Below, one piece after another: positions 23,750 through 47,400 of a stretch of 64,000 nt of DNA. The position numbers and the translations under genes are program-made. Each line of letters starts with the position of its first letter. Position 1 is the first letter of the stretch. A model generated the notes under the pieces. It had not been told where the DNA came from. It saw only the letters and a list, made by a program, of their open reading frames with translations, and made no database searches. Location: the NCBI GenBank assembly GCA_048213135.1, contig PS015049.1, positions 128,422 through 192,421 on the forward strand, given 5' to 3'. The stretch is from Reclinomonas americana ATCC 50394 (Eukaryota).

Positions 23750-26452
23750 AACTACCGCGGGCCAGCAGCACTGCGAGCACGGAGATGATCACCAGGCCGA
23801 TCATTGCGGGAAGCAGAAAGGAACTGCTGGAGGAGCCGGCAGGTGCCGGTTTTGCAGAGGAGGAGGAGGATGACTGTGGAGCGGCGGCGGAGGATCGAGA
23901 GGCCGCCGAGGGCGTGGCAGACGAGGCGGAGACGGTCGAGGCTGGTGTGGCGACCGCCATATCGACCAGCTGGCCGTAGAGTGCAGTACCCGGGCTGCCT
24001 TCTGCGGAGTAAAGACACATGAGTTTGAGCGTCTCTCACCTCGTGCAATTCCCCCCACTCACTCACCATGCTCGACGAGCTGACCCGAATGTGTGCCGGT
24101 GCGTTCCGTGAGTGGGTGGTTCTCGGCAGTGGCCGCCGAAATGCCACGCAGGCCCAGCAGCTGTTCTAGTCGCTCGCCCATGACCTGCAAGCGCGCAACG
24201 TGAGAGGCGAATCGCTTCCTTAGTTGTCAAGGCCGGAAGAGCGCGCAACATCCATCGAGTCGTCGACAAACAGGTGATCGTTGCACGTCACTTGCGGGAT
24301 GCCGGAATCGACAAACACTCGGCGCGCCAGCGGATACACAAAGTCGGTGTCTGCACGGGAGGCGGATAAGGAGACGCACAATCTACTGCCTCCTGAAGCA
24401 CGCCTGACCTTCGCGTTTCCGCAAATCGACTGCCGGTCGCTCATCTTCGCCAACACCACCACCGGCAAGGTGCACTCGCCACTGCAGTGTGGCACACAAG
24501 TCGTTCTTGACGCACTGCACAGTGGGCGCTTGAGTGTTGCTCATGCACATGGAAGAGATAGAGAAACGAGTGCCGACACAAACCTGCACGGCATCGGCCA
24601 CGCTCACTTTGCCGTCGACAATGCACAACGAGTTGGCACACAGCTGATACCGACACGTGCCACGTGTGGGTTGATTGCTCGCGGCGTCGAAGCCCACATG
24701 GGGGAGCATGGGGTCGCTTGACAACAACTCCACGGTGTGCTGCATGGAGAAAATCAGTCGCTTCTATCGCCACCCGTTCTTGCATGTCCACACCAACCTG
24801 CTTGGCACGACCGAGCTCGTCCACCGTCTTGCCGTCTTGCGCGACCTCGCCGTCAATCAGCGCCACCATGGCCTGAATGCCGTCGCAGTACATGCGTACC
24901 ACACGCTGCGTGAAAGGAGTCAGCAACTGATCGCGGTAGTGTCGCACCGGAAGCATGTTCAAACCTCCAAGTGGGCGTCGATCGCACTGCAATGTGGAAA
25001 CGCGCAAGTGAGTGTGCGACAACCTCGCAAAAATCTGCGGGAGAATCACGCAACGCTGCCGACGCCGCCGACGCCAACACCGGCACGACCAGGTCGATTT
25101 CCAACCGCGACACCAGATGCTGCATCTTGGCCGTCACCGACTGCTGTGTTTTCCATGCAGCGGGTTGCAGGGCCACCACGTTTGGGGGCGCAGCACTCTT
25201 CAGCGTTACTCTGTGAAAGGAGAATGGGGAGAGGATCATTGTCAACCAACTTGTACTCACTGAATTGTATACGCTTCCCTCTGCTCATGTGCAACTCACG
25301 GAATGAGTGGGGCGGTAGAGAGAGAGAGGAGGGGGTAGGAGGAGGAGGAGGAGGAGAAAGAAATAGAACAACAACAACAACAACACCGACACAGAGAAGA
25401 GCGCGCGCGCGCTCTCTCTCTCTTCTACTCGGTCCAACTTGTCGAAGTACAACACAAGATGAGTCTCTGTCTCACTCTCGCACGCTGTCCCTTCCACGTG
25501 CACCGTCGCAGTGTGCTCAAGCACCACTCGGGGAATGCCGCCTTCCAACATGAGCACGTGCAACAGAAATGCACGAGTTCTCTTCACGCTTCCTTTCCTC
25601 AATGCACCATTGAAGCGAGCTTCTATACAGTGATGATGCATGCTGTCTGCGATCGCTCATATCTCCCTTCTCCAGCTGGCAAACGTACATCTGGTTTCAA
25701 AAAGCGCACGGAGAGCTGTCTCTCTCACTCTCCTCTTTCGTACACCCTCTCTCCGCTCTCCCTCTTTAACATGCATCAATCCATCTTGCACATGTCGACG
25801 GAGAGCTGTCTCTCTCCTCCTCCTTCTCCCCCTCCCTTCCCCTCCAGCGTCCACCCAACTTGCGCGTATGCTGATGCATGTGCAACACATAGAACGGATG
25901 CTCCCGCGTGGCCGGACACTCCACTCGCACATGTCGCAGCAGCTCCGACAAGTACTGCGCGTTCTCGCGAAACACATCCGTGTACGTGACCACATACACT
26001 CCCACGACCGTCACACCTCCGGGAAGCAGTCGACTCGCCTGTGCTGTGTGCGTCACGAGACAAGAGAGAGAAAGTGGGAAGACACATGTATGTAGAAGGG
26101 TACCTCGCGGACATGTTGCGCGACCCAGTGTGGTGTCAGAGTCGAGAATGAACGCTCAGCAGCACCTGCATGTGCATTCATCAATCACACGCTCTCTCTC
26201 TTTCTCTCTCTCACTCTCTTATCACACTCACCTGAGGGTGGTGAGGGTGACGGAGCCACGTGGAAGCACACATGGCGATCGCCCAGTGCCTGTGAGGAGA
26301 CAAGTGAGTGCGCGTGTGTGTGAGTGTGCAGAGAGTGTGCACATGTCACTCACCTGGCCAACGAGAATGCCCACGTCAAAGACGGTGCCAGCGCGACACA
26401 GGTCTTCTAGTACGGTGGACACAAGTCGCTGATCGCCGACAAGAGTGGCCAT
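23750..26452 (-). CDS. ODR4: ODR-4 family ER membrane protein (3' end runs into an N gap)
   Basis: VGILVGQ, WVAQHVREASRLLPGGVTVVGVYVV, AVKALKNDL-like CVKNDL segment, PLARRVFV...NDHLF and a C-terminal TM (FLLPAMIGLVIISVLAVLLA) match ODR-4-like proteins. Confidence 0.85.
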
Positions 26453-26769: not shown

Positions 26770-28630
26770 TCACTGTTCGGGGTACCGATCGCGCCAGTAC
26801 GAGATGCCATCGGAACTAATGTACGTCATGAGCGTGGCTTCGTAGGCGACGGCCTCTTGCGGTGTGCGCCGGCATTGCTCCTTGAAGACGCGCGGGTTGC
26901 CTACCGTGCATCCGGCGACCGTCAGCGATTCGAGGGCCAGTGGAGCGAGAATCTGTGCACGTAACGTGAGGGGCAGCTAGCGCACTCCGTTTTGGTGACA
27001 CCATCGACACGCACCTTCTCAAACAAGTGACGCGATCGTGGCACGTGGTGGTGGCTGGTGGCCACCAGTACGTGCCGCAGGTTCTTCCAGCCGCGCGACT
27101 GTGCCATGTACCGCACGCAGCCTGCGTTGCCGTATGTGTCGGGTGAACGATCCTCGGCAATCACGTGCCCATCCTGTGTGTGCCGCAGTGAGCTCAGAAG
27201 CTGCAGAAGCCCGTGCTCTCATCAGTGGCGCAACTCTCGGCGCATGCAGCTGCTCGTGCGCGTACTCGCACATCATCTCGGCCTCGGTGCGTGGTAAGTT
27301 CTGCGCTCCCTTGGTGAGAAAGAATCATGAACGAGGAAGTGCACAACAGAGTCACCAACCCGCGGATTGCCGCCCGACATGATCAGCACGGCCCCGTTCT
27401 GTCCGTAAATGTACCTCGCCGATCGCCACGCCGACACGCCGAGACGCACACGGCACTCCAACGCTTGCGCCATGTGGCAGTCGTGCCCCTCGCCCAACAA
27501 CGCCTGTCCGAGCACGACCACCGCCATTGTCGGTCCTTCGTCTGACTCCCCAAAGTCAGCGCGGAGGAACAGGAAACAGAGTGCCTCCCTTGCCAGCACA
27601 CACACCATCGGAGCTCGGCATTGGCGGCGGCACCGACAAGTCCCACTCCACGCGCTCCGTGTTGCCGTTCTCCACGCGATGACCGAGCAGCGTCTGCAAC
27701 ACATACGAATGCGTGACCACGAGTATCACTCGCTCCGGACGGCGACTCAACCAGGTGCGGAAGCCCTGCGCCACGCGCATGAGGAACACTTCGTCGGGCT
27801 CCATGTCGCACCGCAGCGAGCGATCCACGGGCGTGCCGTCGTCAAACCACCTGAGACGCAAAAAATCAGTCAACAATCGGAGCAGAGAAGGCGAGGAGAG
27901 GCCACCGCACCATTCGTCAGCCCACGTCTCCATCTCGTCAAAGCTAAAGTGTGGGAACTGTACGGGAGAGGGTGGTTGAAGCGCATGTCGACACGAGTGA
28001 GGCGAGCTTCGGCGCACTGACCTGTTCTTTGAGCACCGACAAGGGCGTGCCGAAATCGTGCGAGGAGCAGCGTCGCTCGGCCGCCAGTGGACACACCACC
28101 ACGGGAATGCCCGAGTCGGGGTTGTACACACTCTGTGGAGCGTGCGTGGTCTCAGTCGGTGAGAGAGAGAGAGAGACAAGAGAGACGAGTCGCGAGTACC
28201 TCGGTGGTGGTCTGCAGACACCGCGTAAACGGCGACGTGACAATGAGCTGTGGCGGCTCGGCACACGTCGCCACCTCTGTCTCGTACCACTCACGGATCT
28301 TGGTCGCTTGCTGAGAGAATGTGTGTGAGAGAGAGAGCATGCAATCACACCTGTGGCGATCACTTCACCTCCTTGCCGAGGTGATCGAGCCCAGCGTCTG
28401 GCATAATGACAAAGTCCTTGCCAGTGCGACCAGGCAACTCGGCAGCGATCGCCTGATCACACACATTGTGGGTTGCATGCATGCACACGTGGCCACATGT
28501 ACACACACATGCATGCATTCATTCGACGCACTCGCGACAGTTGATTGTACACCGACTGGCAGTGGCGCACAAAGTAGATGGTCTTGCGATGACTGGCATC
28601 GCTGCCTCCACTGCCACTTGCCTCGCTCAT
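26770..28630 (-). CDS. Histidine phosphatase (PGM-like) fused to a DUF218/YdcF-like domain
   Basis: N-terminal: KTIYFVRHCQSVYN, DAGLDHLGKEQA, VTSPFTRCLQT, WLSRRPERVILVVTHS. C-terminal: AVVVLG, LIMSGG, TEAEMM, EDRSPDTYGNA, VATSHHHVPRS. The junction intron is phase 1 (GAT G|AC GAA) with no stop. Confidence 0.8.
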
Positions 28631-31351: not shown

Positions 31352-32367
31352 TCATGGTGTCTTTAATCTCGGCTCTGCCGTGTCGTCATCTGCGCCTTCA
31401 TCATCGTCATCATGGTGTTCTTCGTCGTCGCCCGTCTCCTCGACACGCTTCGTGACGTAGCTCCACAGCTCGGCAAACTCCGCAGGCGGCATGATCTGCG
31501 TCAGCGCTCTCCTCACGTCCTTGGCCCGCATCTGTCGCGTATCCTCATCCACCTCCACCTCGGCCTCCTCCGCATCGCCATCGGCTGGAGTGGAAGAAGC
31601 GGAGGACGGACCGCCCACGGCCCGACTGGCCACCTGCTGCAGCAGACCAAACAACACGGCGTGGCATGCCGTAATCGCCTTTTCAGAGATCTTCAGCTCA
31701 CCACCGGTCTGCTTGTGCAGCGCCTCGTACAAGATGGCGCGGAGATCCAGCGGCTCATCATCATCATCATCATCATCGTCGGCATCGGCTTCTTCTTCTT
31801 CATCGTCGTCGTCGTCATCGTCGTCATCCTCCTCCGGTTCCGCCACATAGTCACCATCCTCCTCATCTTCATCCTCCTCTGCGTCGTCCTCATGATTGTC
31901 ATACACCTGTCGTTCCACGGCGGAGAAAATCGACTGGAACGGCATCTGCAGAGGCATCGGCGGAGGAGGAGGAGGCGGCGGTGGTGGCGGCAGAGGCGGA
32001 AACGACAGAGGAACACTCTCCCTGCGCGCTCTCTTACGCGTCGGCGACCCGCGCGCACGCTCCTCCTCCAGTTCCCGCACCAGTCGCGCATTCTCCTTGT
32101 GCAAGTGATCACGCCTGCACACATCTCATCAGCAACAGGCAAAACCCACAGGAGACAACGAGTGGAGACAGCAACTCTTGTGCCACTCTGCTCAGCTCCA
32201 CCTCCAGCTGCCGAATGCGCGTCTGTGAGGTCACCGACAACTGCTCATACTGTGTGCATGCACAGTGAGCAAGAAAAACACAAAAAAAAAGAGAGAAAAG
32301 AGAGAAAGAGAGGCGCAACATGAAAACGCAGAGCGCGGATCTCTTCCTCGAGCGCAAGGCGACTCAT
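31352..32367 (-). CDS. Coiled-coil, acidic protein with a divergent H2B-like histone fold (3 exons)
   Basis: MSRLALEEEIRALRFH|YEQL...VAQE|RDHLHKENARLVRELEEE, RKRARR, poly-P, D/E tract, then AILYEALHKQTGGELKISEKAITACHAVLFGLLQQVASRA...QMRAKDVRRALTQIMPPAEFAELWSYVTKRV. Confidence 0.7.
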
Positions 32368-32451: not shown

Positions 32452-35431
32452 ATGGCCGACGCCATTCTCAGTTGCGTTCTCTCATGCTTTCTTCGCTGCA
32501 CATAGACAGGCACCGCGTGGCAGTGAAAACGCAGGCGATTTCGTGTTGAATGTGTTGTGCATGTTGGGTCATGTCCACACACTTGTCTCTCTCACTCACT
32601 TGCTTGTGTGCGTGTGTGCGTGTGTGCAGTCACGTATGGCGCATTGTCGCTGATGGCCGTGACCATTGTGGTCATTGGATGCCGGAACTTGCAGAAGCAG
32701 GTGGTGAGTTGCACACTGTTGATTGTCTCCTGTCTCTCTTCCTGTCTCTCTGTGCGTGTGAGAGTGAGAGAAGAGAGTGTGTGTGTGTGTGAGAGAGAGA
32801 GAGCTGGAGAAGAACGAGAGCGGGAAAGCGAATGAGTTGGTGACTTTGGTCAGTTTGGGCATTGACTTCAACTGGCCTCCGCCCGTGCGTGTTGTCGCAC
32901 GAGTGAGACAGTGATGCACTTAGAAGAAGCAGCATTCAGAGCGCACACGACGTGTGTGATTGCAGTTGTCACAATTGAACACGTGTTACAGGTCGAAAAA
33001 GTCGACTCGTCACAAGCATGGCAGTTCCCGTTTGTGGGCGCAGCGGTGCTTCTCGGTCTGTTCCTGCTGTTCCGGTACTTGCCGCGTGAGTATGTGAATC
33101 TGGTGCTGGGCACGTTATTCTGCGTGCTGGGCATTCCCTCGTTGGCGGCGGCCTTGACGCCGCTTGTCGCCAAGCTCGGTCTGCCGGATAAGTCGGAGCG
33201 GGAGTTTGCGTTGTTGGGTGAGTGGGGGATAGGGGAAAGGAGGAGGGGGAAAGGGGGATAAGGGAGAAGGGGACAGAGAGGAGGAGAAGGGAGGTGATGT
33301 GGGGGAGTGAGGAGAATGATGGCCTCTTGTCAGCATGGTACCCACGTGTGGTTGTTGGACTGATGTGACGATTGGCTTCACCATTCTCGTTCTGTTGTGT
33401 GCGACGGTTGCAGGAGGGTGGAGAGGGAGGAGGATGCAGGAGAAGATGAGACAGAAGAGTGGGGTGTCTTCCTACTTCATCGCTCACGATGGCACTGCGC
33501 CATCATGCGCGCTTTTGCTTGTGTGAGTGACATTCCAGCTGTGTTAACCTGTCAGTGATGAAGGGAAGAGTGAGAGGCAAGATAATCTTTCAACTCGACG
33601 ACACTGCACCATCGAGTGTGTTCTACATGTGTGAACCTGTCATTGTTGAGAGCAAAGAGTGAGAGGGCGACGACAGTTGTTCAACTCGATGGTACTGCAC
33701 CCTTCGGTGGGTTCTAATTTGTGCAACACGAGTGAGGTGTGAACCTGTCAGTGTTGAGAGCAAGGAGTGATAGGGCGACGACAGTTGTTCAACTCGATGG
33801 TATTGCACCCTTCGGTGTGTTCTAGTTTGTGCAATACGGGTGTGCACCTGTCAGTGATGAGAGGGAAGAGCGAGAGGCGACAACAGTCTTACAACTCTAT
33901 GAGATTCTGGACGTGTGTGCTTGTCGACGAGTGAGAATTGTGGTGTACCTCTCTTCATGATGAGCACCTGGAGGGATTCATATGCAGTTGAATTTCGGTA
34001 TGAGCAACATCCTCTTCCTCCCTCTCATTTATCCACATCCACCAGGTGTCGAGTTCGACCTGTCTGCCGCCGGCATTGTCAGCTTGCTGTTGGCCTGCGC
34101 CGTCTCCATCACCTACATGGTCACGAAGAACTGGCTGGCCAACAACATTTTTGGCTTTGGCGTCTCTGGTATGAACAGCCTCATCTCCTCCTCTCCTCCT
34201 CTTCTCCTCCTCTTCTCCTCATTCCCGCCCACCTCACAGTTGTGTACATTGGCGTCATTTCGCTCGAGTCGTTCAAGGTCTCGATCATTCTTCTCAGCGG
34301 CCTCTTCATCTACGACATTGTGATGGTGTTCGGCACGCCACTGATGGTCACCGTCGCCAAGAACTTTGACGCGCCCATCAAGCTGCTCTTCCCGCGCAAC
34401 GTGCTGGCACCCATCTCCGAGTGGCAGTTCTCCATGCTGGGCCTGGGCGACATTGTGATTCCCGGCCTGTTCATTGCACAGATGCGCAGACTCGACGACC
34501 ACCTGCGCGCGGCCAATCCCAAGCGCGGCAACACGTACTACAATGCCACGCTCGGCGGCTACATTTTCGGATTGTTCCTGACCATGCTGGTGATGCATGT
34601 GTTCCAGAAGCCGCAGGTGGGTGGAGTGGCAAGGGAGGGCAAGGAGAAGTGACATCTTGCTGTCGCGTGGGGGTGATCGAGTCAGCATTCTCTTATTTCG
34701 CCATTGGCTGCTCACTTGTGCACGCCTCATCGTCCAGGCTGACTCATCACTCATTCAGAGTCTGCTTGTGGAGCGGGCGTCTCTTTCAGTCTTTCCCTCC
34801 AGCACGTCTCATTGTCAACAGTCTCTGTCTTTTCCGTCGTGCATCTCGCTGGTATCTCTCTTTTTCTCAGTGTGCGTTCACTGTCCCTCTTCCGTTTGCC
34901 TTCTCTCTTTGTCTCGCCCTGTGCTTTCGCCGTTTCCCTCATTCGCATGTCTCTTTCATCCAGGCAGATTCATTCTTGTACGCGTGCATTCGTTGCCGCA
35001 GTCATTGATTTCGCTTGTCTCCACTCTGCCGTCTCGGCCTGTGCATTCACCGTGTCTCTCGCCTCAGCCAGCAGGCTCATTCATGCCTATCCGCATGCAT
35101 TCACGCACTGTCTCTTTCTGATGCGGGCGTCTTTGCCTGCGTTCGCTTTGTCCCTCTCCTCATCCGGGCGCACTCTTTCCCCTGCTTTCATCTCACCTCA
35201 CTCCCTCTCCATCCCTCCCCACAGCCTGCGCTTCTGTACCTCGTCCCCTGCATCATCATCTTCTCCCTCGGCAACGCCATTGTGCGCGGCGAGCTGAAGA
35301 TGCTGTGGGGCTACGTGGAGACATCGACCGAGGTGATTGACGACACCAAGAAGGACGAGAAGAAGGCCGAGGCCGTGGAGGGCGCCACTGCCGCCGCCGC
35401 CGTCGCCGCCGAGTCGAAGAAGGATAAGTGA
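32452..35431 (+). CDS. HM13: Signal peptide peptidase (GxGD intramembrane aspartyl protease)
   Basis: YDIVMVFGT, FDAPIKLLFP, FSMLGLGDIVIPG and PQPALLYLVP motifs; C-terminal KKDK ER-retrieval signal (KKxx). Six in-frame exons. Confidence 0.95.
33547..33900. repeat. Intronic tandem repeat with a ~108-bp unit (4 copies, inner two best conserved)
   Basis: acctgtca(g/t)tg(a/t)tga...gcgacgacagttgttcaactcgatggta..gcacccttcggtg; copies start at about 33547, 33633, 33741 and 33846. Confidence 0.85.
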
Positions 35432-35647: not shown

Positions 35648-36481
35648 TTATGCCGAAGGCGGCGCCTTGACGACCTCAAACTCGACCGTGATGGCCGCAT
35701 AGTCGTCGACATCAATGCCGGCCTGGAGCACGTCGCCGACCTTGATCGGCCCCACACCCGACGGCGTGCCAGTGAGGATCAAATCGCCCTCCTCCAGCGT
35801 CACATGCCGACTGATGGAGGAGATGAGCTGCGGCACGGAGAAGATCATCTCACGCGTGGTCTCCGCCTGTCGCGGTCCATTGTTGACATTGAGCCAGATG
35901 CGCACGTTTTGCGGGTTCGGGATCATGCTCGGCGGCAGCATGTTCTTGCTGACTCCGCAAAACGTGTCGGCGCCCTTGGCCAGCGCCCAAGGAAGCCCCT
36001 GCTTCTTGGCATCGTTCTGCCACTGCCGCGAGGTCACATCGATCGCGCATACGTAGCCTGCAACGGACTGGCATTAGAGAGACTTGTTTTCCACAAGTTG
36101 TCTTCTGTTTGAGTGCGTGTTTACCTGCAACGTGTGACATGGCATCGGCGGGCTTGATGTTCTTCCCGATGCGGCTAATGACGACTCCCAGCTCGACCTC
36201 GTGATGCAGCTCAGTGAGGCCCTCGGGGAGGAGAATGTGCGGAGGGCGCGCATCGTGTTTCGGGTCCGACAGCAGGTACGACGAGGGCGGCTTGAAGAAG
36301 AACTGCACGTCGGTGGGCACAGGGTTGTTCAACTCCGCGGCGTGGCTGCATGAGTGGAAAGAGTGAGTGAGAGAGAGAGGGAGAGTCAATGAGTGTGTGT
36401 GTGTGTGCATACTCACGCGCGGTAGTTGCGCAGCACGCCAATGATCTTGGAGCCGGGTCGGATCCACAGTGGGTATCGCAT
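35648..36481 (-). CDS. FAHD1: Fumarylacetoacetate hydrolase domain protein (acylpyruvase / oxaloacetate decarboxylase type)
   Basis: KIIGVLRNYRAHAAELNNPVP...FFFKPPSSY...LHHEVELGVVI...GYVCAIDVTSR...AKKQGLPWALAKGADTF...LEEGDLILTGTPSGVGP. Two in-frame introns. Confidence 0.95.
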
Positions 36482-36913
36482 GTGTGTGTGAGAGTGTGTG
36501 TGTGAGAGGAGGGAGAGGAGAGGGGAAAGAGGTGCGCGAATGCGGCGGGAAATTGGTGGTGCAGCAGTCGCCGCCTTGTCGGACAAATCGCTCTCCACTC
36601 TCTCAACTCCGTGCAGGTGCGAGCGTGTGGGAAGAGCTGCGATGCAAGGAGGCTTGTGGAGAGAGACATGGTTTGTGAAAAACAAACCATCGTTGCATGC
36701 GAACAACTTCACATAATGAAATGTCGACGTCCACGTGCTTTTCTTGCGCTTGCTGAATGATTGCATCTTGCCCTCCTTGGCCTCCCACTCACCCACATAC
36801 AACTGGCGCTGTTCGTCGATGATCTCACGAACTTCGCGCAATGAGTCGATATCGACTCGGCACGCCCGTTACTCGATCAATTTTTCACGCGGGAAGCGAG
36901 AGAAAGAGAGAGA

Positions 36914-39900
36914 ATGGTCCACCTCACCGTTCTCTCCAGCCACACCAAGGCGCATGGCGCGCTCTTCCCGGTACCCTGTTTCCCCCTTACTCAATGCGTT
37001 GAATCACTCGTCTGTGCGCTGACGCACGCGCAAACACAGACACCAAGTCGCATTCGTGTGAAGGAACCCGATGGTCTCATGCTGGTCCTCCAAAGCGCAG
37101 CACCGCACACGAGAGTTGCGTCACGCTCTACCTTACTCACTGTTACACCACACTCACCCACTCCTTCGCTTGTCACACAATCACACATTTCCTTCCTCCT
37201 CCATTCCCTCCTTCCTTGACTCCTCTTTCCCTTCTTCCTTCCCTCCCACACTCTCCTTCCTTCTCTTTCCCTCCCTCCCTCCCCACCCCTTCTCCCTCTC
37301 CCCCCTCTCACTTCCCCCTGCTGCAGCCGGAGACGCAGCTCGGCGAACCATCATACTTTGTGTCGTTCTGCGTGGACGCCTCGGGCAAGCATGCGAGTGT
37401 GCTCGACTCGCGCGGCAATGTGTTCTCGTTGTACTTTGAGGAGAATCGTTTTGCATTGATGTCGCGATGTGGAGGCGGAGGCGGAGTGCTCGTGCAGTAC
37501 GCCAGCAGCCAGAAGCCACTGGTGTTGGTGGCACTGCGCAAGTTGTGTTGCACCCTTGCATTCACCATATCTCTTACTCTCCCAGTCTCTGACACGCAAA
37601 GCACAGCTTGCAAGTGCACCTGTACAATGCCATTTCACGCAACTTGGAGGCCACGCTGGTCGGCCTCACTGGCAGCCCGCGCTCGATCTTCTCACACCCC
37701 GATGGAAGCATGTTTGGCCTGTGCAGGTGTGCTTGCTTCTCCTGCCCACCCCCGTCGCCTCCCCTCAACCATTCCTCGCCGCGCAGCAACCATGAAATCG
37801 TGTTGTGGGAGTGCATTCCGAGCTGGCGGCGTGTGGCCATTCTGCGCCGCTCGGTCCGTGCACCCGGCCTGACGCATGCCACATACGATCCACTCGGTCG
37901 TGTGCTGGTCGTGGTCAATGCGCGCGTGTCGCGCATCTTTCTCCTCGACACGCACTCGTTGAGTGTGATTGGTGTGCTTGAACCGTGGGGTGCCGACATG
38001 GAGGGCACCGGTGACGAGAATGATGCCGAGCGTCGTTCCATTGGCAGCGCGTCTGCGACGGGTGCACGCACCGGTGGCGCCACACGCAAGCGCCGTCCAG
38101 GAGACTACCCCGCCGATGTGCTCACCACGTGTGCTTTCTCCTCCGACGGCAAGCTGCTGGCCGCCGGCGGCAAGTCCACCCGACTGTACGTGTGGGAGTA
38201 CGACACGTTCAACTTGCTGAAGATTGTCGACGTGCCACACGTGGCGGTGGGCACGGCGCAGATTCAGTTCTCGCGCGACTCGCAGGTGCGACAGGGGCAA
38301 AGAGTTGGTGCTGCTCAGCAGGAGTCTGTTTACCGACCTCCCTATCTGTTGCAGACCATGTTCTTGTTGGGTCTGGATGGCGCGTTGCGAGCAGTGAGCG
38401 CGTCCTCCTTCAAGATCGAGTTCGAGCTCAGCCTGCCACACGCAGTTGCGCACTGGGCATTCTGCCAGACATACACGCTGCGCTTCGCTTCCGCTCATCC
38501 TCCGTCAAACACCATTGCAGAGTATCATTCAGTTCGAGCTGCAACCGAGCATGGAGCGCATGCTCTTTTGCTTGTTGTCGTCTGGCGAGCTATACTTGTA
38601 CGACGTGGAGGTGGCGCGCACGAATTATCAAAAAGTGCTGCGAGCGCGCAACGTACAAGGCGACACGTTCCTCACGGTGCGATCGCCGGTGCGCGACGAG
38701 GACGAGACGCCGGATCTGTCGCGCTTGCTCAGCCCCGAGTTGTTTGCGCAAGTGCGTTCTGCGTTGTTTTCTCTTCCGTCTCTCCTTCTTCCCTCTCATT
38801 CACACGACACAGGCCACCGCGGAAGCACGCGGAATGCGCACTCCGCCCACCCCGAACACACTCAAGCAGTGGCTGCCCAAGAGCGATGCCGGTCCAGGCG
38901 ACGGNNNNNNNNNNNNNNNNNNNNNNNNNNNNNNNNNNNNNNNNNNNNNNNNNNNNNNNNNNNNNNNNNNNNNNNNNNNNNNNNNNNNNNNNNNNNNNNN
39001 NNNNNNNNNNNNNNNNNNNNNNNNNNNNNNNNNNNNNNNNNNNNNNNNNNNNNNNNNNNNNNNNNNNNNNNNNNNNNNNNNNNNNNNNNNNNNNNNNNNN
39101 NNNNNNNNNNNNNNNNNNNNNNNNNNNNNNNNNNNNNNNNNNNNNNNNNNNNNNNNNNNNNNNNNNNNNNNNNNNNNNNNNNNNNNNNNNNNNNNNNNNN
39201 NNNNNNNNNNNNNNNNNNNNNNNNNNNNNNNNNNNNNNNNNNNNNNNNNNNNNNNNNNNNNNNNNNNNNNNNNNNNNNNNNNNNNNNNNNNNNNNNNNNN
39301 NNNNNNNNNNNNNNNNNNNNNNNNNNNNNNNNNNNNNNNNNNNNNNNNNNNNNNNNNNNNNNNNNNNNNNNNNNNNNNNNNNNNNNNNNNNNNNNNNNNN
39401 NNNNNNNNNNNNNNNNNNNNNNNNNNNNNNNNNNNNNNNNNNNNNNNNNNNNNNNNNNNNNNNNNNNNNNNNNNNNNNNNNNNNNNNNNNNNNNNNNNNN
39501 NNNNNNNNNNNNNNNNNNNNNNNNNNNNNNNNNNNNNNNNNNNNNNNNNNNNNNNNNNNNNNNNNNNNNNNNNNNNNNNNNAGGGTTCTCTCCGCGCTGT
39601 CGTGGTGGACACCGCTGCTCTCCGAGGTGGCCTTCCTGCCCGAGTTGGTGTATCCGTTTGTGGAACTGTTCTCCGGCAGTGTCCTGGATGCGTTCGAGTG
39701 CTCCGCCGCCTTTATCATGAACTGGTGCCGCTACTACTTTGAGTATTGGCCGGCGGCGCCGGTGGACATGATGCACTTTGTGGCCGACTGTCTCCACGTC
39801 TACGACCCCGAGCTGTTTGCGCACTTGGATATCCTGCGCTGCTCACCGGAGGACACGGCGTGGCCGCTATTCCGCACCTCCATGTCGGAGGTGCTGTCGC

Positions 39901-42900
39901 GCGGCGAGTGGCTCCAACTCTTTGATCACGGTGCGCAACAACAACAACACGCTCCATATGTTTGACGAAACTCACCACTCTCGCTTCCGGCCGCAGTAAT
40001 GAGCAACGAACCGCTGTTCTTCTCGTGCGTGGTGGTGGCGTACCACTTGCAGTTCCGGGCGGCGGTTCTGCAAATGCGCGAGCGGGAGCAGATTTCGCGT
40101 TTCTTCCGTCAAGTGAATCCCGTCGACCTGTCAAAGGTGATTGCGCGTGCCATGCGCATCCATCGCGAGATGCGACCGGTGGTGTGCGACGCTCCCGGCG
40201 GCTACCTGCGTGACTTGGGNNNNNNNNNNNNNNNNNNNNTGCCTTCCGGCCCCTCACGCGCGAAGTCTATCCGCCCTTCCACCACTACCCACAGCACGTG
40301 GTCGACTATCACGTCAAGCAGCGTGAGCGATTGCGACGGGAAGAGGAGGAGCTGCTGGCCAAGCGGTGCGACGTCATGTGTTTATGAGTACGGCACACCT
40401 TATCCTTCCCTCACCGTCTGACGTGCGTGCAGTGCCACTGTGCAAGACATTCAACGACGCGCTGCTTCGCTGGAGGTGGAGGAGCGATCGTGGCGAGCTC
40501 GCCAGCGCGCGTTGCAGGTTGCAGAGCAGCAGGCGCGCGATCAGGCTGCCGTGGTCGACTCCAATATGCTGGCGGAGCGCGAACGGTCAGGCTCGCCACA
40601 TGCACCGCGTCCACATTTACAACTGCGCTGACACTTTGTCCCTCCTCGCAGCATGGACTTGGTGGAGCGACAGGCTCGTATTGAACAGCTCGAGGCCATG
40701 CGTCGGGCCACCGAGGCCGCGGCCAGCTACCGAGAGGAGTCGCTGAGACGGGGCGTTTCCGAGCAGGGTGAGTGTGTTGCCTTGTTTTTGTCTGCTCCTT
40801 GCTCTTCACCTGACTGACACCTCCCCCCAGTGAATGCACATATCGAGTCGACGGCGGCACGTCTGGCGTACGAGAGAGACAAGCTGCAGACGGAAAAGTC
40901 TCTGCGTGCCGCCGAGCTGGCCACACAGCAGCGGTGGGAGGAGGAGCACCGACGTCGCGAGGAGGAGTTGTTCCAGCGGCAGCTGGTGAACGATGTGGAG
41001 GCGCGCAAGCGTCGTCTGGAGACCGAGCACGACATGCTGGAGCATCAGCGGCGTGCGGAGGAAGAGGAGCGCATTCGTTCACGAGACTTGCACCGCGAGC
41101 GCAAGGAACGCATGCTGTCGCTTGAGGAGCGCCTGCAGCGCAAGCGCGAGGTGGAGCTCAAGTTGCAGATGCACGAACTCGATGCACAGGTGCGTGAGCG
41201 CTACGCTCACTGTCGCCTTTGTTGTGATGCATGACTCACATGAGTGTCTGCAGCTGCAACGCGACATGGCGGAGCGTGAGCGCCGTCTGCGTGAACTGGA
41301 GGACCGCCACTCTCTGCTGATGGATGAGGACGCCGAGCGGCGGCTGGAACTGGACCGCGCGCGCAGTCGTGCCGACGAGCTGGCGATGCAGGAGATCTCG
41401 GTCAAGGCCAGCGACCGTTTGCGAATTGAGGAGTCGGGCCGTGCACACGAATTCGACGAAGGTGCGCGCCTGCTGGCCGAGCAAATGGAGAGGCAAAAGA
41501 AGGTGAGTTGTTGCAAAACAAGTGTGTTTGGAGGCGGAGAACGCACGCTGAACATCTGTGCGAGTCACAGAGGATTGCAGAGTTGGAGGTCCTGCGCAGC
41601 CGCGGTCGCATTCAGGAGGAGCTGCTGAGTCGCGTGCGCGCAGAGGAGGAGTCGGCGCTGCGCGAGGAGCGCCGTCTGCAACAAATGTTGTTGGAGATGG
41701 ACAATGCTCGGCGGCAGGCGCGTGTCGACGAGTGGGAGCTGGATGCACGAGAGCATGCCACAAAGGTACATTTATGTGGTGATCGTTACGGTGGTGAATT
41801 TTATTGTCACTCATCTATCTATCGCTGTTGCTCCACCCCCAGAGTCAACTCGACCTGCAACGACAGCTGCACCAGACGGCAGATCAGATCTTGATCGAGG
41901 AACGCCAGCGCTTCAACGTGCTGCGCCAGCACCTGGACGAGCGCATGGAGGATGATCTGGCGGTGCACACCATTCGGCAGCCACGGCATCGACACGGCCA
42001 CGTGGATGTCGGGAGCCCGGCCACCGACGACGAGTTTGAGCGACCGCTGCGAGAGGCCGTACATGCTGCCGAGCGTGCACAACTGGAGCGTGATCGGTCG
42101 GACTTGGAGCGACGCCATCGCGAGTTCCTGGACCGCATCGATACTCTCGGACGGTCGCACACGCTTGGTCGCACCTCGGCGTCGGATCGCGACCGACCAC
42201 GCATGGAGTCGCCGGCACCGCTGGTGGGCGGCAGCAGTTTCTCTGCCGAGCACCCTGCCCTGTCGGCCATTCGTGAGACGCTGCGACGCGAGTACGGCTC
42301 GGAAGTGTCGACGATGACCACACCCTCCGGCACCGCCACACCCTCGTCGGGCGGCACCATGTCGTCGCCTTCGTTGACTCCGCCCTCCTCCTCCAGCAGC
42401 AACAGCAGCAGCACTACCAACACCAGTCGCAGTGGATCGGGCAACGACCGCTCCACTCCCGGCAGCGGTAGCAGCAGCAGCAGCAGTGGCAGCGGTAACG
42501 ATCGCGGACGAAGACGTGGAACCGATTCTTCGTCACCGTCACCACCGCCACCGCGCGTGATGGAACAGTTGGCGCGTCACTTTGCCGAGCGTCGCACCGC
42601 GACATCGCACTTGCTGGAGCGCACCGCCGAAGCCGAATCGGCAGCCGGCCGCCGACAAGCAGCAGCAGTAGCCGAAGAAGAGGAGCAGCAGCGGCAGCAA
42701 CAGGACTTGTCGCGTACCATGCGACGACCGGTCTCGTCCGGTCGCAGCGAGATGGTGGAGGCCTCGAGGCGAAGGGTGAGTGTTGGTGACGGTGATGACG
42801 ATGAAAGTGTGCAAAAAGCTCATATATATGTGTGGTGACGACTGCAGGCGAGTGCCGCCACAACGACAACCACCACAACGGCATCGTCGTCGTCCGTGTC

Positions 42901-43232: not shown

Positions 43233-43903
43233 TCATTCACTGGGCAAGAACAAGGCGAACAACGAGAAAGTTACCTGCACGGCGAGTGGATCGACACCGG
43301 GAAGCGACGACACGCGCAAGGCCAGAGAGCAACCAGAGCACATGAGCACTGTATCATCGATCGTACGTTGCCACCAGTGCTGCTGCTGCTGCTCCACCTC
43401 GCCATCGGAAGACGACGACGACGAAGATCGAGGAGACGAGGGCGCATCTTGCTCGGCCAACTCCTCTCTCCGCTCCTCCTCCTGCTCCGCACGCGCTGCT
43501 GCCTCCTTCAGCAAGTGCACTCGCTGCAGCTCATACGTCTCTCCACACCGACACGGCCACATCCACACCTCATCCAGCGGATTCCACAGCATCTCATGCA
43601 AAAACACCTCCTCATTCGCCTCCAGCTCATCCGCCGACGGATCTGCACATGAGAAACATAAGCAACGCATCTACATAACGAGCAAGGAGGCGGGAAAGCA
43701 GCACCTCCCGCAGGCAGCGCATCGTCGCTGGTGAGCCGCAGATAGGCCTCATGCAAACGTCGGAACTTGGCAGCTGGATCACTGCCGCTTGCATGTAATT
43801 GCCGATCAGGGTGCAAGTCGCGGGCAAGGCGGCGGTATGCTGAGCGGATCTCGGCCAGTGTGGCGGTGCGAGAGACGCCGAGAATGTCGTATGGTGATGA
43901 CAT
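43233..43903 (-). CDS. DPH4: J-domain plus CSL zinc-finger protein (diphthamide biosynthesis DPH4/DNAJC24)
   Basis: SPYDILGV...IRSAYRRLARDLHPD J domain followed by WPCRCG...CSGCSL. Exact 3' end uncertain. Confidence 0.88.
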
Positions 43904-44496
43904 AAGTTCGAAGTTGGTGGTGGTGTCACTTGGGACATGATTTTCGCGCGCGATTTCGTGGTTCCTCACAAAAAAAGTGTGTGTTTGTGTGTGTGTGAAA
44001 GTGTGTGTGTGTGAGAGAGAGAGTGAGAGTGTGTGAGTGAGAGAGCGCAACGAGGAGGAGAAGAAAGGTGAGTGTGACAAATGTGTGACAAAAGTGTGTG
44101 TGAAAAGTGAGTGAGTGTGTGTGATGAGCGTAGAAAGAGTGTGTGTGTGCTAGTGGGTGTGTAAGTGTGTGTGAGAGTGTGTGTGTGTGTGTGAGGAACA
44201 AAATGTGAGAGTGTGAGAAAAAGTGAGTGATGAAAGTGTGTGAATGTGAGTGTGTGTATGAGTGTGTGTGTGAGTGTGTGTGTGAGAGAGAGAGAGAGAG
44301 ACAAGTGTGTGGAGTGTATCCCATGTGTTTGAGAATGTGATTGAGAAAGTACGTGTCGCGATTTGGTTCTTTTTTCTCAAACTCTTCTCTCACTCACACT
44401 CACTCTCACTCACTCTCACTCTCTCACTCTCTCTCTCTCTCTCACTCCCCTCACTCACTCACCCTCCCTCGACTCAGCACACAATCCGACAACAAT

Positions 44497-47400
44497 ATGT
44501 CCACTCGGCCGTCTCGCAGTGCGGCGTCCAAATCAGCGGCTGGCGGCAACTCGCCGCACTGGACGCGCACTGCTGCCGGACGCCCGCTGAGTAAGCGCGC
44601 AGCGGCGGGAGACAGTGACGGCGACTTTGACGATGGAGCTGGAGGCGACGCGTCGACTGGCCGTGCACGCTCGCAGGCGGGCGCACGACGCCCGTCGTAT
44701 CCGCCTCCGGATCGAGGACGACTGGCGCAGGCGATTGTGACGGTGCTGCGCGAGGCTGCCGCGCCACTGACGATTGAGGAGATTGTGGAGCGCGTGCACG
44801 CGCACGATACCGGGCTCACCACCAAGGCGCACCAGCTGCACGCGTTCCTGGGGCGCGATATTGCCTCCAAGGGCACTGGCTCGGTGTTCCATCGAGTGGT
44901 TCCCGGTGTGTTTTCGCTGCGTGAACTCGGTCCGGTGTCGGACGACGTTCGCGAGGCGTGCTTGGAGCGCGCCAAGAATCGCCCCAAGCACGGCGGCGCT
45001 CGCGTCAAGGTCATCGACGTCATTCAGCAACTGATCCTCGCCGCCGGTCATCCTCTGACGGTGTGCACATTGCATGTCAGCCTCTATGTTTTATCATTAC
45101 TTCGTGAGCCTCCCTCACACTCTTGGACGACTGCAGATTGCGTCGCAGCTGCGTTCGCGCGAGGACGGTGGCATCAGTGTGGACACGGCCGATCACCAGG
45201 TGCACGCACTGATCGCCCGCGACATCTCCAACAAAGGCTCCGGCTCGGTATTTGTGCGCGTGGCCAATGGCGTGTTCACGGTGCCAAGTGTGGGCGTGCC
45301 GCCCGATTATGTCGTTCCCCGTGCGACGTACACCGCCCCATCCTCGTCGTCCTCCACCACAGCAGCAGCAGGGGCGGCGGTGGCGGCGTCGGGTGATCGC
45401 GTTGTGGCGTCGCCAAGCGGTGCCACCAGTCGATCGCTGCAGCCCAACCTGACATCGCTGGTGCGCTGCATCTTGCGACAAACCGACGAANNNNNNNNNN
45501 NNNNNNNNNNCCAATGTCGGTCTCCGACCTGCTCGCACGCCTCGTTGCCACCGGCTCACGGCAACTGTCGCCCAATCTGAGCGAGCACCAGTTGCATGCG
45601 TTTCTCTCACGCAGTGCGCACAACAAGAGCGGGTACGATGTACCGCCCTTCCTGGTGCTGGAGGGTCATCGGTATACGACGCCGGAGAACGTTCAGCTCA
45701 ACGGCTTCCTACATCAGTTCTCGGATGCGACGTGGGTAGGCATGCTCGCTCGCGCTCTGCGCGACAGTGCCCGCAATGCTGGCACCGCGGCGGCCGACCA
45801 GGGCCAGGACCCACCATCCGCATTCATCTATCACGCCGAGCTGTCGGGTGCTGAGGTACTGCAGCTCATTCGCCATCGCCTGACGCTTGCCGACGACCGG
45901 CTGGCACTGCACACACTGCGCGAGCATGTGGAGGCCACTGTTGCGTCGCTGTCGCCACAGGACATGCCGATTGCCATGGCGATCGGCGCCGACGCCGACG
46001 ACGATGCGGCCGTGGTGTACACACTCCGCGAGTTGTATTCTGGACGGCAACAGACCACACGCAGCCCGGCACCCAGTCGGGCCAAGAGCAGTCTGGCACG
46101 CAAGAGGCGCCGCAGCCTGCTTTCCAAGAAGAAGAAGCAGAAACGGGGCGCTGCGACTGCTGCGACTTCTGCCGGTACCAAGCGGAGAAAGACAGCCGGC
46201 TCGGCCGTGGCCACCGAGGAAGGCCACGCCGGTTCAGAGAACGGCGACGACGACGATGCCGACAACGACGGTGACGACGACGACGATGATGACGACGGCG
46301 ATGAGGATATGTCCGCTGCTTTTGGCACCGGCCACGGCGGCGTTGACGACGACGATGACGACGACGGCGACTATCAGATTGCAGAGGGTGACAGCGGCGA
46401 CGACAGTGACGACGATTATGTTGCCGGCATCAGCGGCAGTATCTCGAAGTCGGGCCGAGGCCACAGGAATGGCGCCAATGGCGGCATGCAGCATTCGTTG
46501 CCGGAGACGGTGAGCGGCATGGTTTCTCTCGACAACCTGCCGCCACTGATCACCGAGGAGGAGGAGAGAGCGGCGGCCGACGGGCGCATCAGCACCATGT
46601 TTGATGAGGACGAGGACGAAGAGGACGAGGAGATGAAGACGGCGACGGTGGTGCATGAGGAGGANNNNNNNNNNNNNNNNNNNNNNNNNNNNNNNNNNNN
46701 NNNNNNNNNNNNNNNNNNNNNNNNNNNNNNNNNNNNNNNNNNNNNNNNNNNNNNNNNNNNNNNNNNNNNGGAGGAGGAGGAGAAGACGACGAATAAGGAC
46801 GAAGCGCCGAGTGCTGATGCGACCGACGACGACCATGCCATGGAGCACGCGAATGGCCATCGGCGACACGATGATGCTGATGACGACGGCGACGACGACG
46901 TTGCTGGCGGTGGTGGCGGTCCACAACCAGCGGCCCCTGTGGCGGTCGCGGACCACTCGATGTCGAGTGCCGCAAGTGGTGGCGGCAACGGCGACGGCAA
47001 CGGCAGCAGCAACAGCGGTGATGGCAGCAGTGGTAGTGGTGGTGGGGAGGGTACTGGAGCGAGCGGTAATGGTGGCCAACAAGAGAGCAGCAAGACGACG
47101 GCTGCGGCCGTACAGATGGGATTCGGTGGTGCCAACGAGTTCACTCCTGTGCGCCTGGCGCTGCTCCCCGGTGGCCACCTCAGCCACGCACGTTCCGCCG
47201 TGACTCTGACGCCAGACATGCACACGGAGGTGGAGGAGAGCGAAGACGACTCGGAGGCCATGATGGCGTTGGACGGCGACGGCATTGGTGCGCTGAAAGC
47301 GAGACCGGTAATCAAAGGGTACGTGTACTGGCGACACAATGCATCGATGCCCACGCATTGTCTGACATTGGCGTCTGTGTAGTGTTCGCTCTTCTTCCAC

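What the first reader, a model, noticed from the sequence alone, without database searches (positions are those of the whole stretch)
31352..32367. Acidic, highly divergent H2B-like histone-fold protein with an N-terminal coiled coil
Seen: AILYEALHKQTGGELKISEKAITACHAVLFGLLQQVASRA aligns by eye to H2B alpha1-L1-alpha2 ([39 protein letters not shown]). QMRAKDVRRALTQIMPPAEFAELWSYVTKRV aligns to alpha3-alphaC ([31 protein letters not shown]). The basic DNA-contacting loop is replaced by a ~27-aa acidic insert, and the fold is flanked by long D/E tracts. Upstream are an SP-T-RKRARR motif (CDK site plus NLS-like) and a ~60-aa coiled coil. Inference: not a nucleosomal histone, but a possible H2B mimic that pairs with H2A/H2A.Z as a chaperone or decoy, or a lineage-specific kinetochore or chromatin factor.
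Basis: partly seen in the sequence, partly recalled or inferred. Interest (0 to 1): 0.72.

Follow-up and report, generated by a model that had tools for sequence, protein, structure and literature searches.

The report
Acidic orphan protein, probable histone fold
A gene of a poorly sampled, intron-bearing protist encodes a very acidic protein whose only ordered part is predicted, at low confidence, to be a self-pairing histone-type fold; no relative was found, so the call is suggestive and not proven.

Summary
They have the stated acidic flanks, a 26-28 aa Ser/acidic insert, an SPTRKRARR motif and a proline run. The "60-aa coiled coil" exists only if one or two short introns with atypical donors are spliced, so the 5' end is unsettled.

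Sequence methods found nothing. Pfam, PDB sequence search, two word-index searches and a full HMMER pass over 1.84 billion representatives gave no true relative.

The fold evidence points one way but is weak:
- Language-model features place the core nearest histone-fold families (0.87, below the 0.9 mark).
- Two low-confidence AlphaFold2 models (pLDDT 51-52) give helix-loop-long helix-loop-helix plus a C-terminal helix.
- Foldseek puts chains from nucleosome and H2A-H2B entries first, but at noise-level E-values (0.28 or more).
- A two-copy ESMFold2 fold passed its controls (0.44 against 0.00) with the contact pattern of a histone-fold handshake.

Best reading: a real, lineage-restricted nuclear protein with a divergent histone fold carrying a C-terminal helix, as H2B and NF-YB do. 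It probably dimerises, and its acidic tracts suit binding basic proteins rather than wrapping DNA. Membership of the H2B family, pairing with H2A and any kinetochore role are untested.

The parts
31352..32114 (-). Last (main) coding exon including the stop codon (31352..31354). It is open in one frame from 32122. The first in-frame ATG is at 31957.
32320..32367 (-). Uncertain, because its donor begins GTT.
32250..32319 (-). Putative intron 1 (70 nt): a long pyrimidine tract ending CACAG, like the 3' ends of the neighbouring introns.
32176..32249 (-). Putative exon 2, coil-like, in a second frame.
32115..32175 (-). Putative intron 2 (61 nt, or 55 nt with the alternative donor at 32169), ending GTGCAG.
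32048..32113 (-). Coil-like E/R/L-rich segment contiguous with the main frame (about 22 aa).
32021..32047 (-). SPTRKRARR: a Ser-Pro-x-Arg site followed by a basic cluster. Reading it as a CDK site plus a nuclear localisation signal is inference from motif knowledge.
31958..31999 (-). Proline run: 13 Pro in 14 residues.
31895..31939 (-). Short predicted helix (residues 7-21 of the 201-aa model), low confidence.
31757..31897 (-). Acidic tract 1: 47 aa, 79% D/E, net -37. Part of it (31755..31828) is an 8.6-copy array of a 9-nt unit.
31706..31744 (-). Predicted helix 1 of the fold (core residues 7-19).
31685..31705 (-). Loop 1 (core residues 20-26). In the two-copy model it touches the pre-helix-3 segment of the other copy.
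31619..31684 (-). Predicted long central helix 2 (core residues 27-48). In the two-copy model it crosses its twin antiparallel around residues 37-40.
31526..31618 (-). Loop 2 with the 26-aa Ser/Asp/Glu insert (net -9). It ends in a short basic stretch directly before helix 3.
31493..31525 (-). Predicted helix 3 (core residues 80-90). In the two-copy model it packs on the N-terminal half of the partner's helix 2.
31433..31486 (-). Predicted C-terminal helix (core residues 93-110), following a Pro-Pro turn.
31355..31438 (-). Acidic tail: 28 aa, 50% D/E, net -12.

Best explanation
This is a real protein-coding gene of a poorly sampled, intron-bearing eukaryote. Its product is about 200-300 aa and very acidic (pI about 4.2).

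The only ordered module is a highly divergent histone-fold domain: short helix, loop, long helix, loop, short helix, followed by a C-terminal helix as in H2B and NF-YB. The domain pairs by the usual handshake, possibly with a second copy of itself. Coil-like N-terminal segments may help the pairing.

The basic cluster after a Ser-Pro site probably sends the protein to the nucleus. The fold itself is mildly basic, but it is surrounded by about 100 residues of D/E-rich sequence and has an acidic insert in loop 2. So the dimer is unlikely to wrap DNA. More probably it binds basic partners such as histones, acting as a chaperone, buffer or decoy, or its acidic tracts mask its own DNA-binding surface.

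Shown directly: the sequence features and the composition. Predicted at low to moderate confidence: the fold and the dimer. Inferred: nuclear location and the binding of histones.
For: Gene:
- The frame is open for 256 codons.
- The core has the G+C pattern by codon position of the neighbouring confirmed exons: 0.69/0.45/0.77 against 0.60/0.40/0.68.
- Upstream coil-like pieces are bounded by a pyrimidine tract plus CAG, as in neighbouring introns.

Fold:
- ESM Atlas features of the 112-aa core gave best clusters carrying CENP-X, CENP-S/CENP-T_C, TFIID-18kDa and CBFD_NFYB_HMF/Histone. The top score was 0.87, all ten best family-bearing hits were in one clan, and recognition was 2951 against the 2300 mark.
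- Two AlphaFold2 single-sequence models agree on the helices, at core residues 7-19, 27-48, 80-90 and 93-110.
- Foldseek of the 201-aa model against the PDB listed 50 rows. Of these, 49 are chains of nucleosome or H2A-H2B-complex entries, 90-101 aa long. By the usual chain order these are H2B, which is recalled, not stated in the table. One row is a chain of a CCAAT-binding complex.
- The core-only model again had two such entries on top.

Dimer:
- Two copies of the core were folded by ESMFold2. The score was 0.44 (three runs: 0.43, 0.46, 0.44) and the best of 3 controls was 0.00.
- The runs agree in at least 87% of contacts, and the partner's pLDDT is at least 63.
- The mark was reached by 21 of 30 proteins solved as pairs of one chain and by 0 of 23 solved as single chains.
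- On eukaryotes it was reached by 17 of 29 pairs, but by only 1 of the 7 with no older solved relative, and by 0 of 30 single chains.
- The listed contacts are those of a histone-fold handshake. Helix 2 meets helix 2 antiparallel (pairs 37-37, 40-40, 33-41, 36-44). Loop 1 (residue 26) meets the pre-helix-3 segment (residue 80). Helix 3 (residues 82-87) meets the N-terminal half of the partner's helix 2 (residues 29-36). The residues involved are hydrophobic: L37, L40, L41, V36, V44, V83, L87, L99, V103.
- This matches the definition of the fold quoted in PMC13088155, of which I read passages.

Composition:
- Whole model: net -53.
- Fold without the insert: net +3, pI 9.4.
Against: No sequence-level support:
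- Pfam gave no histone-fold family even at E up to 10, for the whole frame, the core or either half.
- phmmer against PDB sequences gave 0 hits for the core and only low-complexity hits for the whole frame.
- The word-index searches gave 0 of 116 candidates (near lengths) and 0 of 5 (shorter).
- HMMER over 1.84 billion representatives gave one hit, a 2465-aa tandem-repeat protein matched in 28 weak stretches. I judge it spurious.

The structural signals are weak:
- pLDDT was 51.3 and 52.1.
- No Foldseek match had E at or below 0.001. The best were 0.28 and 2.9.
- The same model against viral structures gave unrelated hits with equal or better E-values (0.023; rmsd 25.8 A) and no histone among the 50 rows listed. 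So E near 0.3 is noise level for this model.

The Atlas signal is weak:
- The score is below 0.9.
- Shared features were 156, below 170.
- The tool states that a third of shuffled proteins also get ten of ten hits in one clan.
- The whole 253-aa exon gave no usable hit.

Other weaknesses:
- The dimer pass may be from the model's memory of histone dimers. It shows likeness, not binding. ESM Atlas and ESMFold2 are not independent of each other.
- Codon usage does not separate the sense frame from the antisense frame.
- The 5' gene model rests on atypical donors.
Confidence: 0.45

Rival explanations
1. It is not a histone fold. The protein is an acidic, mostly disordered nuclear protein with a few amphipathic helices, and the likeness to H2B is chance plus generic helix lengths.
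For: - Every sequence and profile search was negative.
- The models have low confidence.
- Foldseek E-values are at noise level, as the viral-library search shows.
- The Atlas score is below its own lead threshold.
- There was no usable Atlas hit for the whole exon.
Against: - Three different predictors point to the same fold class.
- The two-copy fold passed with 0.44 against 0.00 for the best control. Its contact map matches the handshake in detail and is hydrophobic.
- Helix order and lengths, and the Pro-Pro turn before the last helix, fit the fold.
Confidence: 0.27
2. It is the fast-evolving local orthologue of a known non-nucleosomal histone-fold protein. Candidates are the H2B-like NF-YB/Dpb4(POLE3)/NC2-beta group, a TAF/SPT3-type fold, or CENP-T. 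It would work in that complex with a conventional H2A-like partner encoded elsewhere.
For: - The lineage is divergent and poorly sampled. The neighbouring signal peptide peptidase finds nothing closer than 62% identity over 53% of the query.
- Few ORFs in the window match Pfam.
- The Atlas neighbours are exactly these families.
- One listed Foldseek row is a CCAAT-binding-complex chain.
- POLE3 is described as an H2B-like fold followed by a C-terminal tail needed for H3-H4 binding (PMC6179962, passages read).
Against: - The Pfam models of these conserved families (PF00808, PF15511, PF02269 and others) do not match, even at E up to 10.
- From recall, not tested: none of these families has a coil-like N-terminus, a proline run and an acidic loop-2 insert together.
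- CENP-T-type proteins are not acidic (also recalled).
- No histone-fold partner was found among 449 ORF segments of the window.
Confidence: 0.18
3. It is not a functional gene. It would be a chance open frame over a GC-rich, repeat-expanded stretch of a draft assembly, or a pseudogene or misassembly.
For: - There is no homologue anywhere.
- The antisense strand carries an equally long ORF of 303 aa.
- Codon usage does not discriminate between the strands.
- The scaffold has 17 N gaps, one starting 41 nt after the stop codon.
- Part of the acidic tract is a 9-nt tandem array.
- The upstream pieces are in three frames, joined by atypical donors.
Against: - The antisense reading is the I/V/L/R-rich shadow of the acidic tracts.
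- The sense reading contains about 80 non-repetitive residues that are predicted helical and form a hydrophobic interface.
- Atlas recognition was 2951, above the mark reached by 9 in 100 shuffled proteins.
- The gene sits head to head with a real gene, in a normal gene-dense neighbourhood.
Confidence: 0.1

Closest known systems
Canonical histone H2B
   Same: - Predicted helix 1, loop, long helix 2, loop, helix 3, then a long C-terminal helix after a Pro-containing turn.
- The best Foldseek rows are chains of nucleosome and H2A-H2B entries.
- Basic residues are kept directly before helix 3.
   Different: - No sequence or profile match.
- About 14% identity in the Foldseek alignments.
- No basic N-terminal tail.
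- pI 4.2 and net charge -53.
- A 26-aa acidic insert in loop 2.
- Coil-like N-terminus, proline run and acidic flanks.
H2B-like non-nucleosomal folds: NF-YB, Dpb4/POLE3/CHRAC-17, NC2-beta
   Same: - A histone fold with a C-terminal helix and, in POLE3, a C-terminal tail used for histone H3-H4 binding (PMC6179962, passages read).
- A CBFD_NFYB_HMF-bearing cluster is among the Atlas neighbours.
- One CCAAT-complex chain is among the listed Foldseek rows.
   Different: - PF00808 does not match.
- Those proteins have the fold near the N-terminus and, from recall, no loop-2 insert.
- Their partner is an H2A-like subunit. Here a homodimer is what was predicted, and no partner is known.
Archaeal and bacterial histones (homodimeric histone folds)
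   Same: The two-copy prediction gives a symmetric handshake of identical chains.
   Different: - From recall, those are minimal folds of about 65-70 aa that are basic, bind DNA, and lack a C-terminal helix and acidic tracts.
- No sequence match in a library that includes prokaryotic proteins.
CENP-T (kinetochore histone-fold protein)
   Same: - A long, largely disordered N-terminal part with a Ser-Pro-x-Arg site, and a C-terminal histone fold with extra helix or helices (the CENP-T side is recalled).
- CENP-T_C appears in two Atlas neighbour clusters.
   Different: - PF15511 does not match.
- The extreme acidity is unlike CENP-T (recalled).
- No CENP-W-like partner was identified.
Acidic histone chaperones (nucleoplasmin, NAP1/SET, the acidic segments of FACT, Chz1, Swc5)
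   Same: - Long D/E tracts, with an aromatic residue embedded in the acidic tract.
- A dimerising helix plus a nuclear localisation signal.
- The comparison is by recalled knowledge only.
   Different: From recall, none of these has a histone fold of its own. No family match was found here.

Membership tests
Histone-fold superfamily (fold level) | [quoted passage not shown] | tested here: met
   Two AlphaFold2 models place helices at core residues 7-19, 27-48 and 80-90, but pLDDT is only 51-52. Loop 2 is 31 residues instead of the usual few.
Histone-fold superfamily (fold level) | Handshake dimer in which the central helices pack antiparallel (PMC13088155). | tested here: met
   This is a prediction only. 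The two-copy ESMFold2 score was 0.44 against a best control of 0.00, with pLDDT at least 63 and at least 87% contact agreement. Contacts 37-37, 40-40, 33-41, 36-44, 26-80 and 83-29/32/33/36 were listed. The pass may be from memory of solved histone dimers.
Histone-fold superfamily (fold level) | Significant structural match to a solved histone fold. | tested here: inconclusive
   Top rows come from nucleosome and H2A-H2B entries, but the best E-values were 0.28 and 2.9, with TM-score (normalised to the target) about 0.4. Noise hits in the viral library have similar E-values.
Histone-fold superfamily (fold level) | Match to any histone-fold profile (Pfam clan). | tested here: not met
   No such family at E up to 10 for the whole frame, the core or either half.
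Histone H2B (Pfam Histone, PF00125) | Sequence or profile similarity to H2B. | tested here: not met
   Pfam, PDB phmmer and the 1.84-billion-representative search were all negative. A direct pairwise test was not run because no H2B sequence was obtainable from a tool.
Histone H2B (Pfam Histone, PF00125) | Long C-terminal helix after helix 3. | tested here: met
   A predicted helix at core residues 93-110 follows a Pro-Pro turn, at low confidence. From recall, this feature is not exclusive to H2B.
Histone H2B (Pfam Histone, PF00125) | Basic protein with a basic N-terminal tail that contacts DNA. | tested here: not met
   pI 4.2, net -53, and the flanks are 50-79% D/E.
Histone H2B (Pfam Histone, PF00125) | Heterodimer with H2A or H2A.Z. 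| not tested
   No H2A of this organism, nor any eukaryotic H2A, was available to the complex tool. Only the homodimer was folded.
NF-YB / Dpb4 / NC2-beta (Pfam CBFD_NFYB_HMF, PF00808) | Profile match to PF00808. | tested here: not met
NF-YB / Dpb4 / NC2-beta (Pfam CBFD_NFYB_HMF, PF00808) | H2A-like partner subunit (NF-YC, Dpb3, NC2-alpha). | not testable with these tools
   No histone-fold family was found among 449 ORF segments of at least 80 aa in the window. The rest of the genome is not available.
CENP-T (Pfam CENP-T_C, PF15511) | Profile match and a CENP-W partner. | tested here: not met
   No Pfam match. The family appears only inside two Atlas neighbour clusters, at scores of 0.87 or below. 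The partner was not testable.

The most novel reading that the evidence does not exclude
This would be a new class of histone-fold protein. An H2B-type fold forms a homodimer, or a decoy dimer with H2A-type histones. It is tethered by a coiled coil, carries an acidic insert where loop 2 would meet DNA, and is flanked by DNA-mimicking acidic tracts. Such a protein would be a histone look-alike that captures or buffers histones instead of wrapping DNA, and it would be restricted to a deep, poorly sampled protist lineage.
Probability: 0.15. Interest if true: 0.7.

Novelty: new variant of a known kind. Interest (0 to 1): 0.45.

Why it matters
Histone folds outside the nucleosome (NF-Y, the TAFs, Pol epsilon/CHRAC, CENP-T/W/S/X) are few, old families. 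A further, unrelated-looking histone-fold protein would be new in three ways: an acidic loop-2 insert, massive acidic flanks and a dimerising N-terminus. It would show another way the fold has been reused, perhaps as a histone binder built from a histone-like module.

It would also be a test case for finding folds that sequence profiles miss.

The weight of the case is limited. There is a single gene from one draft genome, with no orthologues, and only low- to moderate-confidence predictions.

Tried and rejected
Sequence and profile searches that found nothing:
- Pfam on the whole frame, the core and each half gave only low-complexity or chance rows: Mito_fiss_reg at the proline run, eIF-3c_N, DUF6139, DUF1641. 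All were below their cut-offs.
- PDB sequence search gave only acidic or proline low-complexity matches for the whole frame, and none for the core.
- Word-index homologue searches found nothing in the near or shorter length classes.
- The full HMMER search returned only P0001, a 2465-aa tandem-repeat translation matched in 28 weak stretches. I rejected it as spurious after reading it.

Other searches:
- Atlas on the whole 253-aa exon gave no usable hit.
- Foldseek against viral structures gave noise only.
- Rfam and tRNA scans of the window, run to place the organism, found nothing.
- A search for a histone-fold partner in the window covered 449 stop-to-stop segments of at least 80 aa, out of 545 of at least 70 aa. 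None matched. Thresholds were E of 1e-3 and 1e-4, so weak matches would be missed.

Ideas considered and set aside:
- The acidic "insert" could be an in-frame 87-nt intron (GTGGGC...CGACAG). I rejected this as less likely. It lacks the pyrimidine tract of the mapped introns, its third-position G+C is typical of coding sequence, and removing it would leave almost no loop 2. This is by-eye reasoning, not tested.
- A frameshift error could replace intron 2. That would put a Cys/hydrophobic stretch inside the coil, so it is less likely.

Papers:
- Three full-text searches found no paper describing this architecture. One search returned 0 papers. For some searches I saw listings only, apart from the two papers cited.
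- PMC4042584 was not held.

Not done:
- Any direct alignment to H2B, because no tool-derived H2B sequence was available.
- HHpred.
- Scans of metagenome and viral contig collections, which were closed.
- A scan of the prokaryote-only genome collection, judged pointless.
Full report
**What is in the sequence.**
On the minus strand, one frame is open from 32122 to the stop at 31352..31354, a total of 256 codons. Its first in-frame ATG is at 31957. From N to C the frame holds:
- a coil-like E/R/L-rich segment (32048..32113);
- SPTRKRARR (32021..32047);
- a run of 13 prolines in 14 residues (31958..31999);
- a short predicted helix;
- a 47-aa tract that is 79% D/E;
- an approximately 80-aa non-repetitive core interrupted by a 26-aa Ser/Asp/Glu stretch;
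- a 28-aa tail that is 50% D/E.

Part of the first acidic tract is an 8.6-copy array of a 9-nt unit. The three-exon model has pI 4.2 and net charge -53. The core without its insert is mildly basic (net +3, pI 9.4). The acidic stretch is inserted ahead of a loop end that is still basic.

**Gene model.**
The window is a draft eukaryotic scaffold with 17 N gaps and spliceosomal introns. The neighbouring signal peptide peptidase is split into at least four blocks when mapped with two homologues. A fumarylacetoacetate-hydrolase-family gene is split by an intron of about 65 nt.

Splicing 32319..32250 (70 nt) and 32175..32115 (61 nt) joins the ATG at 32367 to the main exon and gives 294 aa. An alternative donor at 32169 gives 296 aa. 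The first putative intron ends in a long pyrimidine tract plus CACAG, like the mapped neighbouring introns.

Both donors begin GTT, however. The four introns I could place by homology begin GTGAGT, GTATGA, GTGGGT and GTAAAC. An enumeration found 117 single-intron GT[AG]..AG models that also keep an ATG-to-stop frame through the core. The main exon is therefore solid, and the 5' end is open.

G+C by codon position in the core (0.69/0.45/0.77) resembles the confirmed peptidase exons (0.60/0.40/0.68). My codon-usage score does not separate the sense frame from the antisense frame.

**Relatives.**
None was found.
- Pfam gave no histone-fold family at E up to 10, for the whole frame, the core or either half.
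- PDB sequence search gave nothing for the core and only low-complexity rows for the whole frame.
- Word-index searches gave 0 of 116 candidates (near lengths) and 0 of 5 (shorter).
- HMMER over 1,835,955,588 representatives returned a single protein, a 2465-aa tandem-repeat translation matched in 28 weak stretches. I reject it as spurious.

This absence counts for less than it seems. The conserved neighbouring peptidase finds nothing closer than 62% identity over 53% of the query. Few ORFs in the window match Pfam at all. The lineage is evidently missing from the libraries.

**Fold.**
Four predictions lean the same way, each weakly.

1. ESM Atlas features of the 112-aa core. The nearest clusters carry CENP-X, CENP-S/CENP-T_C, TFIID-18kDa and CBFD_NFYB_HMF/Histone, and all ten best family-bearing hits are in one clan. 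Recognition was 2951, against a mark of 2300 that 9 in 100 shuffled proteins reach. The score is 0.87, below 0.9. Shared features were 156, below 170. The tool says a third of shuffled proteins also get ten of ten. The whole exon gave no usable hit.

2. AlphaFold2 without an alignment, run twice. pLDDT was 51.3 and 52.1, so the coordinates are unreliable. Both runs place helices at core residues 7-19, 27-48, 80-90 and 93-110, the last following a Pro-Pro turn.

3. Foldseek.
   - For the 201-aa model, 49 of the 50 listed PDB rows are 90-101-aa chains of nucleosome or H2A-H2B-complex entries. By the usual chain order these are H2B, which is recalled, not given by the table. One row is a CCAAT-binding-complex chain.
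   - E-values were 0.28-0.79, none at or below 0.001, and identity was about 14%.
   - The core-only model gave 6 matches, with two such entries on top at E 2.9.
   - Against viral structures the same model gave unrelated hits at E from 0.023 and no histone among the 50 rows listed. These E-values are therefore noise level.

4. Two copies of the core folded by ESMFold2.
   - The score was 0.44 (runs 0.43, 0.46, 0.44) and the best of 3 controls was 0.00.
   - The runs agree in at least 87% of contacts, and the partner's pLDDT is at least 63.
   - The mark was reached by 21 of 30 proteins solved as pairs of one chain and 0 of 23 solved as single chains.
   - On eukaryotes it was reached by 17 of 29 pairs, but by only 1 of the 7 without an older solved relative, and by 0 of 30 single chains.
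   - The listed contacts are what a histone-fold handshake requires. The two central helices cross antiparallel at residues 37-40. Loop 1 of one copy meets the pre-helix-3 segment of the other. Helix 3 packs on the N-terminal half of the partner's central helix. The contacts go through hydrophobic residues.
   - This matches the definition quoted in PMC13088155, of which I read passages.
   - The tool warns that such a pass can come from memory of solved complexes. Here that means likeness to histone dimers, which is the question asked, but it does not show that this protein binds itself. Items 1 and 4 share a model family and are not independent.

From recall, not from a call: the segment before and in helix 3 fits the general histone-fold loop-2/helix-3 signature. 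That signature is a hydrophobic residue, then Asp-Val two turns before Ala-Leu. It is common to many histone-fold families, not to H2B in particular.

**What it most likely is and does.**
I put about 0.6 on the core being a histone fold of the type with a C-terminal helix. I put 0.45 on the full reading: a real, lineage-restricted, nuclear, dimeric histone-fold protein whose acidic tracts and loop-2 insert make it a binder of basic proteins, most obviously histones, or a self-masked DNA binder, rather than a nucleosome component.

The sequence features and the composition are shown directly. The fold and the dimer are predicted. Nuclear import, CDK control and histone binding are inferred from motif and family knowledge.

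The rivals are:
- no histone fold at all (0.27);
- a fast-evolved orthologue of NF-YB/Dpb4/NC2-beta, a TAF or CENP-T (0.18);
- not a functional gene (0.10).

**Comparison with known families.**
It resembles H2B and the H2B-like NF-YB/Dpb4 group in predicted topology. It resembles POLE3 in having a tail beyond the fold that could bind histones (PMC6179962, passages read).

It fails the membership tests that could be run. It has no profile match to PF00125, PF00808 or PF15511, it is not basic, and it has no basic tail. Pairing with H2A was not testable.

I therefore file it only at fold level, as a new variant: a histone fold with an acidic loop-2 insert, acidic flanks and a coil-like N-terminus. 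Three full-text searches found no description of such an architecture (listings only, apart from the two papers cited).

**Context.**
The neighbourhood is ordinary and gene-dense:
- a Vps4-like AAA C-terminus (623..1195, +);
- an ODR4-like gene (24856..26155, -);
- DUF218 (26925..27218, -);
- the target gene, head to head with signal peptide peptidase (32866..35428, +);
- an FAA-hydrolase-family gene (35651..36602, -);
- WD40 and RabGAP-TBC pieces (37593..39962, +);
- a DnaJ plus CSL-zinc-finger gene (43236..44149, -);
- HARE-HTH (44341..45393, +);
- tyrosyl-DNA phosphodiesterase (57074..58757, -).

No histone-fold family was found among 449 ORF segments of at least 80 aa.

**Limits.**
- HHpred was not available.
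- All structure jobs ran without alignments.

Noticed in passing
window 49063..49680 (-): A 205-aa ATG ORF gives a weak match to the kinetochore family Mis12 (E 6e-4, 20.1 bits, below the 25.7-bit cut-off). It was not listed at the stricter 1e-4 threshold. It lies 17 kb from the finding, and no link between them is shown.
   Followed up: no
window 33540..33901 (+): Tandem repeats with a period of 91-108 nt (2.1-2.6 copies, 77-85% matches) lie inside the long first mapped intron of the signal peptide peptidase gene.
   Followed up: partly
window 31755..31828: The acidic tract next to the fold is partly an 8.6-copy array of a 9-nt unit. Its length is probably labile and could be affected by assembly.
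   Followed up: partly
window 43236..44149 (-): A DnaJ domain and a CSL zinc finger lie in two adjacent frames. From recall, this architecture is that of the diphthamide-synthesis protein DPH4. The gene is probably split by a short intron.
   Followed up: no
window 44341..45393 (+): An ORF with a HARE-HTH domain (E 4e-6 to 5e-6). From recall, this domain occurs in chromatin and DNA-modification-associated proteins. It is followed by long ORFs with no family match (45511..47382).
   Followed up: no
window 57074..58757 (-): Tyrosyl-DNA phosphodiesterase, in at least two exon pieces.
   Followed up: no
whole window: There are 17 runs of N, from 20 to 853 nt. Few long ORFs have any Pfam match. No tRNA or Rfam family was found. 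The conserved peptidase has no relative above 62% identity. The source lineage appears to be absent from the protein libraries.
   Followed up: partly
window 31412..32323 (+): A 303-aa antisense ORF lies over the target gene. It is I/V/L/F/R-rich, and its weak membrane-protein Pfam rows are far below their cut-offs. I read it as the shadow of the acidic codon repeats, not as a gene.
   Followed up: partly
window 32250..32321 (-): If the pyrimidine tract is read through from the ATG at 32321 instead of being spliced out, it encodes a signal-peptide-like hydrophobic N-terminus. This is probably an artefact of translating a pyrimidine tract. It is an alternative start that RNA data would settle.
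   Followed up: partly
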